64,000 nucleotides of DNA. Origin: Glycera tridactyla. Its lineage: Eukaryota. Of this stretch, positions 49,001 through 61,000 are shown piece after piece (the stretch's first letter is position 1; every line of letters starts with the position of its first letter). The stretch lies in contig OZ286465.1 in NCBI GenBank assembly GCA_965644265.1, positions 70,866,001-70,930,000 of the forward strand, in the 5' to 3' direction. Position numbers: made by a program.

Positions 49001-52000
49001 TTCATGATGTGTGGCCTCTGAATGTTTCATGATGTGCGGCCTCTGAATGTTTCATGATGTGTGACTGCTGAATGTTTCATGATGTGCGACCACTGAATGT
49101 TTCATGATGTGTGGCCTCTTGAATGTCTCATGATGTGCAACCAATGAATGTTTCATGATGTGCGACCGCTGAATGTTTCATGATGTGTTCAAAGTTTCAT
49201 GATGTGCAGCCACTGAATGTTCCATATGCGCTGTCATTGAATGTTCCATGATGTGCAACCGCTGAATGTTCCATAATGTGCGGCCACTGAATGTTCCATG
49301 ATGTGCGACCGCTGAATGTTTCATGATGTGCGGCCTCTGAATGTTTCATGATGTGTGACTGCTGAATGTTTCATGATGTGCGACCACTGAATGTTTCATG
49401 ATGTGTGGCCTCTTGAATGTCTCATGATGTGCAACCAATGAATGTTTCATGATGTGCGACCGCTGAATGTTTCATGATGTGTTCAAAATTTCATGATGTG
49501 CAGCCACTGAATGTTCCATATGCGCTGTCATTGAATGTTCCATGATGTGCGACCACTGAATGTTCCATGATGTGCGACCGCTGAATGTTCCATGATGTGC
49601 GACCGCTGAATGTTTCATGATGTGCGACCGCTGTATGTTTCATGATGTGCGACCGCTGAATGTTTCATGATGTGCGGCCTCTGAATGTTTCATGATGTGC
49701 AGCCGCACAGCAATGATTATTTATTGAGTTGACATGGCACTGATCAGAGAATCAATCACAAAGCTAAATCAACGTGACCATCTCTCAACATTCATCATGA
49801 TGCATACCCAATGCATGTGAGAGTGAGTGCTTCTCTTCCCTTGCCTCAACCACCACCAACTTCCCGTACTCATGCCATTCAACTTGTCCCATGCCCTGGT
49901 TGGTTGTTCCAGTGGGCCACTGTTCAAAAGATTTGTTTGTTTGTTTGGGTTTAACATCCTTTCAACCTCCTTACATTATATTGGACTTTGAGTGCCGAAA
50001 AAGAGAGGCACCGCTGTCTGGGGAGAAGGGGGGCGGGTATCCCGCACAGAAACAGACTCCCATACACATAGTCAGCCTTTGATATTCCAGTCAGCATACA
50101 CTGGGTTAGCATGCATACAATTAATACAGTCGAACCTCCTCTAAAGACCACCTCCTATAAAGACCGCCCTGAACTGCGACCGTGGTAGTATTTTCAACAG
50201 TAAATGACCTTTCTATAAAAACCACCTTCCTATAAAGACCACATTTTGATGCGACTGAAGGCGGTCTTTATAGGGAGGCTCGACTGTATTTGTTTGAACA
50301 CTCCCAAATTCATGCAAATAATTGAATATGTAGATTCATATCCATCTGTTGGTTGATTGGATGTTTGATTAGCTAGTTGGTTGACTTGCAGGCTGATCAG
50401 CTGGTAGATTGGTAGGTTGGTCAATTGGTTGTTAAATAGCTTGTTTCAACTCATGGGATTACTTAAGCAAAGCTATATGCTGTGGAGTATTCTCAGGGGC
50501 AAATGAAGTGGGAAAAGGCAAACAAATTTATCTATGATGTGCACAGAGGGCACAAACAATTCAGCATACTTCTCTGATACGACCATAGAAATTCATATCT
50601 CCGGGTTAGACAATATACAATAGACCATGAATCGCATGCTATGCATCAACTTTTTTCTCCCCATTGGTCTCTTGTGTCTTCCAGCATCTTATCACATGGA
50701 TGTGGCATTTTCAGTGAAGTATCAGGTGTTGAGTATTGCGTGTGATACTTCACAGCTGTGCGAGAACTACTTTCTGTTGATTTCTCCCCTAATCCATGTG
50801 ATAAAAGCAAGAATATATGGCCCTGAGGTAAAAGAACAATACCAAACTCGGTTTGAATTTTGCTAGATATCACTCGGCCTTCAGCCTCGAGACATGTGGC
50901 AAAACTCACACCTCATTTGGTGTTGCGTTTTTACTTCACAGCCATATATTCTTGCTATATGACAGCATTTCACTAATGTAAACATAAACATAGGCCTTTT
51001 AACCCTTTAGCCCTCAAACCGTGTAAAAACGTGTTTTTAGCACTCCCCCTCAAAGCGGGTGAAAACGTGATTGACAACATCGAGGTGCCGGTATTTTGTA
51101 AACAAACAGCCGTTCTGACGAAAATTGAGATCGTACACGAAAAAACGATGTCGTATGGAAAGCTTAGGAGTTGCTTGTCAATCTGGTATGAATAACGTGA
51201 TATAATGTTCAATATTGAGTGAGGATTGACCCAAAACAATGCATGATGTCAGGGAAAACCACTGCATTCCGCGCCATTTTGTGCCCAATGATGATTTGAC
51301 AGCTCTCTAAAAGATCGATCATAACTTCCCAAAAAACGTTTTTTAACCACTAAATACCTTGATGGGGTGAAAGACAAGAGTCTCACGAATTCAGAGATAT
51401 GTTTATTGTGGGGAAATATGCTATATTTCCCAAGAAACAAGCGTGTGATCACGGAGTTGTCAAGCACCAACGTGCGAGTTCGTTGACAAGCGCCAGAAAC
51501 GGAGGTCGGAAGTGGCTTTGTTTACATGACGTTAGGGGAGCTTTCCCGCCAAAATAAACATAACCACGTGTTTTTCCATACCCTAAAAACTCTTGAATGT
51601 CACTTTTAGACATAGTTGGATTGTTATTCTGCCCTAAAAAAAACGTTTCATCGATGCCTAATTAAGAGAAATCATAATAAGGACTGAATAGTGTATGGAG
51701 TTCGAGTTGTCAAAGGAGTTGAAGTAAGAATATAGACTGTTCAGCTTGGGGGTTAAGAAAACAATTTTTATGTGTTTCAAATGTGTCAAAAACAAAAAGG
51801 AACATCATCTGAGGCATTCTAGGAGCAATATGAGTGACGTTGGAGATGAATATCACTTTGTTATGGAATGTGCCATATCATACTTCTCTCCCTGAAGTTA
51901 CAAACATCATATGCGATATGGAAAGCCTGGGAGTTGCTTGTCAATCTGGTATGAATATTGTGATATAATGTTCAATACTGAGTGAGGATTGGATGAAAAC

Positions 52001-58000: not shown

Positions 58001-61000
58001 GAATCCATAGTATTGTATTGTATCAAGTTCAAGTTGTATGTAGTGGCAATGATTGATAGCTTTCTTCTGTATGTGCCCAAAAATGATACTACCTTGACAC
58101 TAACATGGAAATCATGGCGATGAGAGCATATTCAAAACTGAAGTAAATTTTCCGTCAATAGCTCTTGTATATCATAACACCTGTTATGCAGAGTAACGTC
58201 TGTTGTGCCAGATATGACATTTTGTCAGAAACACAATGATTTTCCTTCAGTAATACACCACAATTAACAGGCATTGAGATACGCTTGACAGATGTCATCC
58301 TTATATTGAAGTCATTATGGTACTTCTATGTAAGAGGTGTTACTCAAGAACAGCTGGTCAAAATAACGTATGTTATGAATGTTTACCCTTTGAGCAGTCC
58401 TATCAGTATCAATTTGTCATATTCTCTCATGATGAATGCAGCTCTATCTGGTGAGGACATTGCTGGCTTGAAGTCTTTTGTGGAGCCATGAAAACATGAC
58501 AATTATAATATTTAGTAACATACGTTATGACAGGACATCTTTGCAATGTGGTCAATGTCACACCTGTTACAAAAATCCCTATCCATGATAAGCAGCAGTA
58601 ATGCAATTCAAGAAACATCTCAGATCAACATCTTCAGTTATGCTGTATCAATACAGGCACAATCAGTGATATTCATATAACTGAAAAACTAGCTATATGC
58701 ATTCGAACATAACAGGTGTTATTATTGACTGTCCAACATAACTTCTGTATGGAGAATTCTCATCATGTAAAATCTGATGGAGTGATCCAGCCTGATGATG
58801 AAAAAGTATTGATAACTGGACCCAACCTGAATGAGACAGGTGCTACTGATTCTTTTTTGAAAGAGAAAAGCCGTAATTTCATGACCTTCATAACATACGT
58901 TATGATTGACATGTCTATCATAGCGTATGATATTCTGTTCGTATGTCGAGTAAAACCAACTTATTCTGTGACAGAAGTGGCTTACATCAGATATGTTATT
59001 TTTTGTGAAGGAAGCTTGCAAATTATTCTGAAATAATGCAGAAAATGCATGGCTATTTCACTATCTATTCTTGTGATGATACTTCAAAATATATCAAAAG
59101 GTGATGTCAGAAAATGCATTATGTAGCTCAGCATAAACATGTGACAGAATGGTGTCATATCCATGAGATTGACAATGAAAACATGCACTGGTCTCATTCA
59201 TTATGATATATATCAGAAAAGTTATTTATTCTCTCCAAACACAGTGTTTTATTAGATCTTCCATGTCAAACATATGTTATGTTCCTACATGGTCAGTTTA
59301 AAGCTCTCCCAAGACTGAGTGGTTCATTAAGTTATCTTTTCCATACTGAAATTTCAAATTCAAGCTATTAGGACTCTGTTTGAAATTGGCCAAAAAGCAC
59401 TTGGGGATTTCTCAATGAATTATGTAGTTATGCCCTGTGATGTGTGTAACCTCATTTTCAGAGCAAACAATCTTCAGTTTCATTTTGCTCAGGACCCCTG
59501 CTATGACTTGTGTGGAAATGGTGCCAATCTGACAATATTTGATTTTGTACCTATATTGGGTGATTTTGTGCCCATGACATGACCTTGTTCAGGTTGTCAT
59601 AGAAACAGAAATCCTCATTTCCAGAGCAAACAACCCCCAGTTACATAATGCTCAGGACCCCTGCTATGACTGGTGTGAAAATGGTGCTGATCTGACATCC
59701 TTTGATTTTGTGCCTATTTTTGGATGATTTTGTGTGGTTATGACCTTGTTCAGGTTGTCATGGAAACAAAAATACCCATTTTCAGATCAAACAACCTTCA
59801 GTTTTATAGTGCTCAGTACCCCTGCTATGACTGGTGTGAAAATGGTGCCGGTCCGATAACCTTTAATTTTAGGCCTATTTTGGGTGATCATGTGCGTAGA
59901 CATAACCTTGTTTGGGTTGCCATGGGAACAACAATAATACATTTTTTGCCAAATTTTATTCGGTTTCACACTGCTCAGGGCTCCAGCTATGGCTGGTGTG
60001 AAAATGGGAATATGAGGAATATGAGGGCTAAATGATCCAACAACCTCCTATTTTGAGCCTGGACATGACCTTGAAAACAGATATCCAATTTTGGCTGCTT
60101 TTGTACCTGGACATGGCCTTCTTCAGGTTGCCATGGAAACAAAAATACTCATTTTCAGAGAAAATAACTTTCAGTTTCATGGTGCTCATGACCCCGACTA
60201 TGACTGGTGCAAAAACGGATAAAATATGACAGCCTTTGATTTTGGGCCTATTTTGGGTGCTTACGGGCCTGGACATGTCCTTGTTCAGGTCGCCATAGAA
60301 ACAGAAATCCTCATTTTCTGGGCAAATGACCTATAGTTCCATGATTCACATGACCCCCACTATGAGTGGTGCGAAAATGGATGAGATCTGACAAACTTTG
60401 ATTTTGAGTTCATTTTGGTCAATTTCATACCTGACATGACCTTGTTTGGGTTGCCATGGAGACAGAAATAATCCAATTTAGGGCAAATTACATCTGGTTT
60501 CACACTACTCAGGACCCCAGGTATGGCTGGTGTGAAAAATTGGGCAGATCTGGGAGACTTCTAATTTGGACCTATTTTTGGTGTTTTTTAACACAGGTAA
60601 TGGCTGTGTTTGGGTTGCCATGGAAACCAAATAATCATCTTCAACTAAAACCAACCCCAGGTCTCTGGTGCCCATCTACTGCACTATCATACATGTGGAG
60701 ATGGGGATGATTGAACAACTTTCATTTTCCCACAAAATTTAGCTGCAAGATGCCAAAAATAGACGCATTTCATTGTTGCCTAGCAACAAGAAAAATAATG
60801 ATTTGTAAAGAAAACACCCAAATCTGAGATGTTCAGATCATGACCAATGCAGCTGGCACAAAAACCCAAAATCACCCGACAATTTTTTTTTCTTCGAAAT
60901 TTTCAGTGAGGAGGAGAAGTGGTTCTCGCCACAGGAATATGAGGGCTAAAGGGTTAAAGAAACTTGTTGCAGCAGGGGTCAGTTCCATTCTGGGGACGAG

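What the first reader, a model, noticed from the sequence alone, without database searches (positions are those of the whole stretch)
51003..60953. Giant (~10 kb) piggyBac-ended element built from tandem arrays instead of a transposase
Seen: an exact 18-bp inverted match including TTAA brackets 9951 bp. The interior is a left arm of ~760-bp degenerate repeats, a middle AT-rich section, a right arm of ~162-bp repeats and at least five nested retroelement pieces, with no transposase ORF. Established: TTAA TSD with CCC...GGG termini is the piggyBac signature, and autonomous piggyBacs are typically only 2-3 kb. Inference: this is an unusually large non-autonomous piggyBac family that carries satellites and could disperse them and their binding sites around the genome.
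Basis: partly seen in the sequence, partly recalled or inferred. Interest (0 to 1): 0.7.

Follow-up and report, generated by a model that had tools for sequence, protein, structure and literature searches.

The report
Ten-kilobase piggyBac-ended element without transposase
A 10-kb stretch bounded by matching piggyBac-type ends and TTAA duplications is most likely one old, passenger-type jumping element filled with tandem repeats, an unusually large example of a known kind of element.

Summary
The core observation holds. TTAA+CCCTTTAGCCCTCA (50999-51016) and its exact reverse complement (60940-60957) are the only TTAACC[CT]T / A[GA]GGTTAA sites in the 64-kb window. They pair 14/14 and bracket 9,951 bp. 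The interior holds a degenerate ~753-bp two-module array (51154 to ~57900), a mildly AT-rich middle and a 161-162-bp array (59450-60660). Six-frame Pfam scans found no transposase. Of the claimed "at least five" retroelement pieces I could support one firmly, one weakly and one by eye only.

Best reading: a single decayed non-autonomous piggyBac-superfamily element. Both arrays stop short of the ends. The left end carries a 23-bp repeat overlapping the inverted repeat, and an 18-bp exact copy of the right terminus sits inside the 162-bp array. The array copies are far more diverged than the perfect ends, so the arrays probably predate this insertion.

Not testable here: other copies, empty sites, a matching transposase. 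The "family that disperses satellites" remains inference. Repeat-carrying non-autonomous DNA transposons are already known, and this window holds another one. Modest interest.

The parts
50999..51002 (.). left TTAA target-site duplication
51003..51016 (+). left 14-bp terminal inverted repeat, CCCTTTAGCCCTCA
   Evidence: (I2)
51011..51069 (+). left subterminal 23-bp direct repeat overlapping the inner 6 bases of the inverted repeat (51011-51033 and 51047-51069; 20 of 23 identical)
   Evidence: 0 of 2000 shuffles of 51034-51302 reach 20/23
51154..53318 (+). well-preserved part of the left tandem array: modules A (~330 bp, at 51154, 51917, 52296) and B (~430 bp, at 51495, 52620, 53067); A+B is about 753 bp
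   Evidence: D2, D5, D15; 83.8% identity over 752 aligned bases for the best pair
53319..54758 (+). nested 5'-truncated and internally shortened CR1-like non-LTR retrotransposon piece. It reads in one frame with 3 in-frame stops (one closes the stretch read) and has a FADD motif. Its boundaries are uncertain by about 25-50 bp. A 15-bp x1.9 tandem tail lies at 54725-54753.
   Evidence: (score 0.95; the RVT_1-labelled clusters carry that family in 13-14% of members). Pfam and PDB gave no family. The CR1 label rests on recalled C-terminal motifs.
54759..57900 (+). degenerate continuation of the A/B array (55116-55404, 55534-55741, 56384-56446, 56549-56792, 57634-57900; 66-84% identity to the reference units), interrupted by other sequence
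   Evidence: (D6, D8, D10-D13, D17)
55933..56025 (+). second, weak reverse-transcriptase-tail-like fragment
   Evidence: tblastn E=0.001, 45% over 31 aa; 56021-56072 matches window 34473-34524, 86.5%
57177..57400 (+). integrase-like reading frame seen by eye only; unverified
   Evidence: No Pfam or PDB match.
57901..59449 (.). mildly AT-rich middle with a cluster of ATAAC-N4-GTTAT palindromes (58174, 58363, 58709, 58890; variant at 58516)
   Evidence: (4 found, 0.5 expected in the window, 0 of 100 shuffles reach 4)
59450..60660 (+). 161-162-bp tandem array of about 7.5 copies, broken by about 49 extra bases at 60036-60084
   Evidence: (D1, D3, D4, D7, D9)
60015..60032 (+). exact 18-bp direct copy of the right terminus (7 subterminal bases plus 11 of the 14 inverted-repeat bases; lacks the final GGG and the TTAA) inside the 162-bp array
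   Evidence: analytic expectation 5e-6; 0 of 200 shuffles
60661..60939 (+). right subterminal region; 60768-60865 weakly resembles the 162-bp unit
   Evidence: score 44 against a shuffle maximum of 43
60940..60953 (-). right 14-bp terminal inverted repeat
60954..60957 (.). right TTAA target-site duplication

Best explanation
Positions 51003-60953 are one copy of a non-autonomous piggyBac-superfamily DNA transposon.

Inferred mechanism: it was moved in trans by a piggyBac-like transposase encoded elsewhere. That enzyme recognises the 14-bp ends plus nearby subterminal repeats, cuts the element out and pastes it into a TTAA, which is thereby duplicated.

Its cargo is not a gene. It is two unrelated tandem arrays, a ~753-bp A+B unit on the left and a 161-162-bp unit on the right, around a unique middle. 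Most of the array amplification happened before this copy was inserted, so the arrays travelled with the element. At least one CR1-like LINE later, or earlier in the master copy, landed in an array unit.

The copy now looks inert: no transposase, decayed arrays, nested insert.

Shown: the ends, the TTAA duplication, the interior anatomy, the absence of a transposase domain. Inferred: trans-mobilisation, the single-element status (my estimate about 0.75), and that the arrays predate the insertion (about 0.55).
For: 1. The ends are specific. They are the only TTAACC[CT]T and A[GA]GGTTAA sites in 64 kb and pair 14/14. The 18-mer has 2 matches at up to 3 mismatches against 0.05 expected.
2. The ends fit the published piggyBac definition. 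In a survey of 157 elements the duplication is TTAA, the inverted repeat is 14 +/- 2 bp, and the first six bases follow C[C/A/T][C/A/T][T/G/A][T/A/G][T/G/A] (PMC5381638, section 10 read). Coral piggyBac-type elements have 13-14-bp inverted repeats starting CCCTTT, including CCCTTTAAGCCCTA (PMC2872659, Tables 1-2 in passages read).
3. No partner end exists for either terminus. At up to 6 mismatches there are 40 sites in the window against 12-32 in shuffles. The only non-terminal site below 5 mismatches that shares a long exact run with the terminus is the internal copy at 60022.
4. Both arrays lie wholly inside the bracket and occur nowhere else in the window; 1 short unrelated hit outside. They stop about 150 bp and about 90-290 bp from the ends.
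5. The ends are tied to their interiors. A 23-bp repeat overlaps the left inverted repeat (20/23; 0 of 2000 shuffles). An 18-bp exact copy of the right terminus sits inside the 162-bp array (expectation 5e-6).
6. Age argument. The youngest array duplications have Jukes-Cantor distances of 0.18-0.21. If they had arisen after insertion, the chance that all 36 end-plus-TTAA bases stayed intact is 0.02-0.04, and 2e-4 at the mean 162-bp divergence.
7. There is no transposase domain in six frames.
8. piggyBac transposase moves very large cargo in experiments (PMC3239208 and PMC3634665; search listing and start of abstracts only).
Against: - Only one copy is visible, with no second copy, empty site or cognate transposase. 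Mobility and family status are therefore unproven.
- Beyond 14 bp the two ends share nothing significant.
- Tandem arrays are frequent throughout this window: at least 6 other arrays in the first 51 kb. Arrays between two points 10 kb apart are therefore not in themselves evidence of cargo.
- The age argument gives only p of about 0.03 for the youngest duplications. It assumes equal substitution rates in arrays and ends.
- At 9,951 bp the unit is longer than any of the 157 autonomous elements surveyed (1,721-8,451 bp; PMC5381638).
- The assembly carries N gaps elsewhere, so a mis-join cannot be excluded from the sequence alone.
Confidence: 0.65

Rival explanations
1. A small piggyBac-type miniature element, a few hundred bp (roughly the left 150 bp plus the right 90-290 bp), inserted here and was then inflated in place. 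Insertions of other repeats and local tandem duplication did the inflating. The arrays were never mobile cargo and the 'family' consists of short elements.
For: - Known piggyBac-derived non-autonomous elements are short: about 100 bp in corals (PMC2872659) and about 750 bp for mPok (PMC3849761).
- At least one later insertion is demonstrable, the LINE at about 53320-54758 that splits an array unit.
- Arrays are common all over the window.
Against: - The ends and both TTAAs are perfect, while even the youngest array duplications are 16-18% diverged. The probability of that under in-place growth is 0.02-0.04, and far lower for the older units.
- The 18-bp copy of the right terminus inside the 162-bp array and the repeat overlapping the left inverted repeat link the ends to the repeat-forming processes.
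- No duplicated target sites flanking a large inserted block were seen.
Confidence: 0.2
2. The two termini belong to two different copies of one family, each having lost its own partner, or to a composite in which two elements flank ordinary genomic DNA. The 9,951 bp would then not be a unit.
For: - Similarity between the ends is confined to 14 bp plus TTAA.
- The left and right arrays are unrelated to each other.
Against: - No candidate partner end lies anywhere in the 64 kb, even at up to 6 mismatches.
- It needs two independent losses of ends.
- The orientation (left end upstream, right end downstream, both facing inward) and intact TTAAs on the outer sides are exactly those of one element.
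Confidence: 0.08
3. Chance match or assembly mis-join that brings together unrelated sequences.
For: - The assembly has 5 N runs elsewhere in the window.
- Repeat-rich regions are prone to mis-assembly.
Against: - The chance expectation for the pairing is about 1e-6.
- There is no N inside 50999-60957.
- The array units are diverged enough (65-84% identity) to be assembled unambiguously.
Confidence: 0.03

Closest known systems
Pokey and its mPok derivatives (piggyBac superfamily, Daphnia)
   Same: TTAA target and short terminal inverted repeats. Pokey carries a series of about 200-bp tandem repeats (2-5 copies) inside the element. Non-autonomous derivatives exist (PMC3849761, abstract and passages read).
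   Different: Pokey keeps its transposase, and its repeats come from the rDNA spacer. mPok is about 750 bp. The element here has no transposase, two unrelated arrays of unknown origin, and is 9,951 bp.
Coral CMITE families and AmiPB piggyBac-like elements (Acropora)
   Same: TTAA duplication and 13-14-bp inverted repeats starting CCCTTT. Family II (CCCTTTAAGCCCTA) differs from the end here by about one indel and one base, by my own eye comparison (PMC2872659, Tables 1-2 in passages read).
   Different: CMITEs are about 100 bp, and their 'arrays' are tandem copies of whole elements, not internal satellites. No sequence comparison beyond the inverted repeat was possible.
Xmix / Xstir (T2-MITE, Xenopus)
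   Same: A TTAA-targeting non-autonomous element whose internal segment was amplified into a large tandem-repeat family (PMC6004289 passages; PMC2872659 cites it as reference 33).
   Different: It belongs to the Kolobok superfamily (AGGRR / AG termini), not piggyBac. The element here starts CCC.
Tandem-repeat-containing MITE-like elements: DTC84 / pearl (bivalves) and Tetris (Drosophila virilis)
   Same: Non-autonomous elements built as end cassettes around internal tandem repeats. They are proposed as seeds of satellite DNA (PMC3879986 and PMC4079207, abstracts read).
   Different: They differ in ends and target sites (AA duplication for DTC84; foldback structure for Tetris) and are much shorter. 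There is no piggyBac signature.
Canonical autonomous piggyBac-like elements
   Same: TTAA, inverted repeat of 14 +/- 2 bp, and subterminal repeats that may overlap the inverted repeat (PMC5381638, section 10).
   Different: They encode a transposase of about 590 aa and measure 1,721-8,451 bp (mean 2,813). No transposase remnant was detectable here.

Membership tests
piggyBac superfamily (as a non-autonomous member) | TTAA target-site duplication on both sides | tested here: met
   TTAA at 50999-51002 and 60954-60957. Criterion from PMC5381638 section 10.
piggyBac superfamily (as a non-autonomous member) | Terminal inverted repeats of about 12-19 bp beginning CC[C/T]T, or C[C/A/T][C/A/T][T/G/A][T/A/G][T/G/A] | tested here: met
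   14 bp, CCCTTTAGCCCTCA, 14/14 complementary. Criteria from PMC2872659 passages and PMC5381638 section 10.
piggyBac superfamily (as a non-autonomous member) | DDE_Tnp_1_7 transposase inside the element (autonomous form), or deletion-derived remnants of it | tested here: not met
   Six-frame Pfam scan with X at stops found no family at E<=1 except DUF4029 at E=0.4. This is expected for a non-autonomous element and rules out the autonomous form only.
piggyBac superfamily (as a non-autonomous member) | A cognate autonomous element with matching ends in the same genome | not testable with these tools
   No genome of the source organism is on hand. The window has no other piggyBac-type end and no open frame of 150 aa or more with a transposase match (10 of the 41 frames of 95 aa or more were scanned, none matched).
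piggyBac superfamily (as a non-autonomous member) | Evidence of mobility: several copies with the same ends, or an empty TTAA site | not testable with these tools
   Within the window there is no second copy. The two scans of the prokaryote-only genome-contig collection gave 0 hits.
Kolobok superfamily (the other TTAA-targeting DNA transposons) | TTAA duplication with termini beginning RR (AG..., AGGRR in T2-MITE) | tested here: not met
   The terminus is CCC...GGG. Criterion from PMC6004289 passages and its Table 5.
MITE in the strict sense | Small size (usually under 500 bp), homogeneous length, high copy number | tested here: not met
   The length is 9,951 bp. Copy number could not be tested. 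Definition from PMC2872659 introduction.
Tandem-repeat-carrying non-autonomous DNA transposon (TR-MITE-like architecture) | End cassettes with inverted repeats flanking internal tandem arrays confined to the element | tested here: met
   The arrays at 51154 to ~57900 and 59450-60660 are confined between the ends and absent elsewhere in the window.
CR1-like non-LTR retrotransposon (nested piece at 53319-54758) | Reverse-transcriptase domain with the YxDD-type motif, a C-terminal region, and a short tandem-repeat 3' tail | tested here: inconclusive
   A FADD motif and one reading frame. Language-model score 0.95 to clusters of which 13-14% of members carry RVT_1. A 15-bp x1.9 tail. But no Pfam family and no PDB relative. 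The clade name rests on recalled motifs.

The most novel reading that the evidence does not exclude
This is one copy of a still-recognisable family of about 10-kb piggyBac-mobilised 'satellite carriers'. In this reading the terminal cassettes move whole ~753-bp and 162-bp arrays, and the palindrome cluster in the middle, to new TTAA sites. That would seed satellite loci genome-wide. The internal 18-bp copy of the right terminus would mark alternative end usage or aberrant transposition that reshapes the cargo.
Probability: 0.15. Interest if true: 0.55.

Novelty: new member of a known kind. Interest (0 to 1): 0.3.

Why it matters
If other copies share the ends and both arrays, this would be a clear natural case of a piggyBac-type element carrying kilobases of satellite-like DNA. 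That would add the piggyBac superfamily to the transposon routes by which tandem repeats spread, already described for Kolobok, pearl-like and foldback elements. It would also show that natural piggyBac cargo can approach the sizes used in engineering. As a single decayed copy, it mainly matters for correct repeat annotation of this genome.

Tried and rejected
- **Chance match:** rejected.
- **Kolobok membership:** rejected because the terminus is not RR (PMC6004289).
- **Longer or subterminal inverted similarity between the ends:** none above shuffles. A shared CGGGTGA 7-mer and a CCTCA...TGAAAA pattern about 45 bp from both ends were seen by eye but are not significant.
- **Degenerate partner ends inside or near the element:** none. 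At up to 6 mismatches the count is 40 against 12-32 in shuffles.
- **Paralogous empty site in the window:** none. The flanks were searched separately and were not joined.
- **Relation of the 162-bp unit to five other arrays in the window:** none (z <= 2.8, below the shuffle maxima).
- **Relation of the left subterminal region to either array:** borderline or absent.
- **Pfam on individual frames and retroelement-like pieces:** nothing.
- **PDB sequence search on the LINE piece and the integrase-like piece:** only a spurious 18-residue peptide match at E=0.6, or nothing.
- **Rfam at gathering thresholds:** 0 matches.
- **Identifying the organism:** failed. The 808-aa frame gave only a 0.80 lead in the protein atlas. 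10 of the 41 frames of 95 aa or more were scanned with Pfam and gave nothing below E=0.019.
- **Literature search for the end sequence as text:** 17 papers, none about a transposon going by their titles and abstract starts; the strings were not inspected in the text.
- **Two scans of the prokaryote-only genome-contig collection:** 0 hits, as expected.
- **The idea that module B derives from a LINE zinc-knuckle or endonuclease region:** raised from the recurring GDE.H..EC peptide (D6), but no tool supports it.

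
Full report
**Observation**

The window reads TTAA at 50999-51002 followed by CCCTTTAGCCCTCA at 51003-51016. It reads TGAGGGCTAAAGGG at 60940-60953 followed by TTAA at 60954-60957. The exact inverted match is 19 nt because one flank base on each side also pairs (I2). The element proper is 9,951 bp.

The match is not chance:
- At up to 3 mismatches the 18-mer occurs twice in the window against a shuffle mean of 0.05. One of 100 shuffles had two or more.
- The window contains exactly one TTAACC[CT]T and one A[GA]GGTTAA. 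They pair over 14 of 14 bases, with an expectation of about 1e-6.
- Complementarity ends after 14 bp. The remaining 386 bp of each end align no better than shuffles.
- No N run lies inside the interval. The five N runs all lie before 40 kb and were left alone.

**Interior**

- *Left array, preserved part (51154-53318).* It is a tandem array of two modules, A (~330 bp) and B (~430 bp), in the order A B A A B B. Start-to-start spacings are 753, 376 and about 1,130 bp. The best A+B pair is 83.8% identical over 752 aligned bases.
- *Left array, degenerate part.* More degenerate A and B pieces (66-84% identity) continue to about 57900.
- *Nested LINE piece (about 53320-54758).* The third B copy is interrupted by a single reading frame with 3 in-frame stops, one of which closes the stretch read. 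It starts with an endonuclease-like tail and jumps to a reverse-transcriptase FADD motif and C-terminal region (motif reading is my own). The array unit resumes after it near the point of interruption, but the junctions are uncertain by 25-50 bp. The protein atlas gave 0.95 to clusters of which 13-14% of members carry RVT_1. Pfam and PDB sequence searches gave nothing.
- *Second, weak fragment (55933-56025).* It matches the same tail at tblastn E=0.001.
- *Integrase-like frame (near 57177-57400).* This is my visual impression only.
- *Middle (57901-59449).* It is mildly AT-rich, with GC 0.28-0.40 per 100 bp. It holds four ATAAC-N4-GTTAT palindromes found nowhere else in the window, against 0.5 expected; 0 of 100 shuffles reach four.
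- *Right array (59450-60660).* It has about 7.5 copies of a 161-162-bp unit, with mean pairwise identity 65% and best 82%. Weak unit-like sequence continues to about 60865.
- *Transposase.* Six-frame Pfam scans with X at stops found no family at E<=1 except a DUF4029 match at E=0.4, so there is no recognisable piggyBac transposase remnant.

**One element, or two ends?**

Four points favour one element:
- Neither terminus has a candidate partner elsewhere in the window, even when 6 of 18 mismatches are allowed (40 sites against 12-32 in shuffles).
- The two arrays are confined to the bracket and absent from the other 54 kb. The only outside hit is a 52-bp LINE-like match.
- The left end carries a 23-bp direct repeat that overlaps the inner six bases of the inverted repeat (51011-51033 and 51047-51069; 20 of 23; 0 of 2000 shuffles). 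Subterminal repeats that overlap the inverted repeat are described for piggyBac-like elements (PMC5381638, section 10), although I cannot say they are the same kind.
- An exact 18-bp copy of the right terminus lies at 60015-60032. It comprises seven subterminal bases plus 11 of the 14 inverted-repeat bases and lacks GGG and TTAA. It sits inside the 162-bp array at the very place where the array has about 49 extra bases. The expectation is 5e-6. It ties the right end historically to the right array. Whether it is templated repair, an aberrant transposition scar or a relic end I cannot tell.

**Were the arrays cargo?**

- The youngest array duplications have Jukes-Cantor distances of 0.18-0.21, about 9-10% change per lineage.
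- Had they arisen after this insertion, the chance that all 36 end-plus-TTAA bases stayed unchanged is 0.02-0.04. At the mean divergence of the 162-bp units it is 2e-4.
- The argument is indirect and assumes similar substitution rates in arrays and ends.

**Context that tempers the finding**

- The window is full of tandem arrays: 116-bp x6.3 at 4368-5097, 147-bp units at 9834-12507, 73-bp x13.6 at 29335-30330, 25-bp x71 at 47966-49706, and smaller ones.
- One of them sits in another non-autonomous DNA transposon. The 116-bp array lies between about 28-bp inverted ends at about 4043 and 5279, reading TA + CAGTCRAACCTCC...
- Two short relatives lie at 3801-3983 and 50124-50290. The Tc1/mariner label for this group is my inference from the TA + CAGT ends.
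- Arrays riding in elements with inverted ends thus recur in this genome. That makes the reading plausible but less special.

**Comparison with what is known**

- *piggyBac definition.* In 157 elements the duplication is TTAA, the inverted repeat is 14 +/- 2 bp, the first six bases are conserved, and the size is 1,721-8,451 bp with a mean of 2,813 (PMC5381638, section 10 read). The ends here meet every terminal criterion, and the length exceeds that range.
- *Coral elements.* Coral piggyBac-type elements have 13-14-bp inverted repeats starting CCCTTT, one of them (CCCTTTAAGCCCTA) very close to this one (PMC2872659, passages with Tables 1-2).
- *Kolobok.* This superfamily also targets TTAA but has AG/AGGRR termini (PMC6004289, passages), so it is excluded.
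- *Internal repeats in TTAA elements.* Pokey carries 2-5 copies of a 200-bp repeat (PMC3849761, abstract and passages). The Kolobok MITE Xmix amplified an internal segment into the Xstir repeat family (PMC6004289).
- *Repeat-carrying MITE-like elements as satellite seeds.* These are described in a clam and in Drosophila (PMC3879986 and PMC4079207, abstracts).
- *Cargo capacity.* piggyBac transposase moves 100-kb-scale cargo in experiments (PMC3239208 and PMC3634665, listing and abstract starts only).
- *In print?* My searches did not turn up a transposase-less piggyBac-ended element of about 10 kb made of two satellite-like arrays. Those searches cover open-access full text only. Repbase-type libraries and the supplements were not available.

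**What stayed unchecked**

- Other copies, empty alleles and the cognate transposase. The only open collection is prokaryotic and gave 0 hits.
- The organism. It was not identified.
- Spliced gene models. None was built, so no joined-exon step arose.

**Verdict**

The ends are real, and this is most likely a single, old, non-autonomous piggyBac-superfamily element carrying tandem arrays. It is larger than usual but of a known kind. The family-level and dispersal claims remain open.

Noticed in passing
window 58174-58903: A cluster of four ATAAC-N4-GTTAT palindromes (58174, 58363, 58709, 58890) plus a variant at 58516. They come in two flavours that are reverse complements of each other. None occurs elsewhere in the window (0.5 expected; 0 of 100 shuffles reach four). 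Possibly protein-binding sites or relics of a degenerate ~150-190-bp repeat. Unexplained.
   Followed up: partly
window 4043-5279, 3801-3983 and 50124-50290: A family of short elements with TA + CAGTSRAACCT... inverted ends and internal GGTGGTC(G/T)TTATAGGGAGG-type repeats. It looks Tc1/mariner-like (my inference). The 1.24-kb member carries the 116-bp x6.3 tandem array (4368-5097) between about 28-bp inverted ends. This is a second repeat-carrying non-autonomous DNA transposon in the same window.
   Followed up: partly
window 29335-30330 and 36343-36395: The 73-bp x13.6 array and the 17-bp x3.2 array contain GGTGGTCTTT(A/G)TAG-like strings. By eye these resemble the subterminal repeats of the TA+CAGT element family. 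Not tested.
   Followed up: no
window 50806-50956: A hairpin-like inverted repeat with 73-nt arms, 75% complementary and 5 nt apart, ending 43 bp left of the TTAA (I1). Possibly a foldback or miniature element next to the insertion site.
   Followed up: no
window 47966-49706: A long minisatellite, 25-bp unit x71 with higher-order periods of 50 and 75 bp, and strong strand skew (GC skew +0.28, AT skew -0.30).
   Followed up: no
window 9834-12507: Two blocks of a 147-bp tandem repeat (83-93% matches) separated by about 1.3 kb. Not detectably related to the 162-bp unit.
   Followed up: partly
window 1168-3594 (minus strand): An 808-aa open frame, rich in Ser, Asp and Cys. It is the only long frame in the window. 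No Pfam family. The best atlas score was 0.80, to exophilin-5-like large-exon clusters, which is a lead only.
   Followed up: partly
window 51830-51880 and six further copies (D6): Module B of the left array translates on the plus strand to a recurring ...GDE.H..EC... peptide. It aligns with the start of the nested LINE frame. This hints that the array unit may itself derive from a retrotransposon coding region. No database tool supports it.
   Followed up: partly
window 13266-13528, 15845-16013, 25243-25752, 35207-35963, 39667-39879: Five N runs of irregular length. All lie outside the finding and were left as they are.
   Followed up: no
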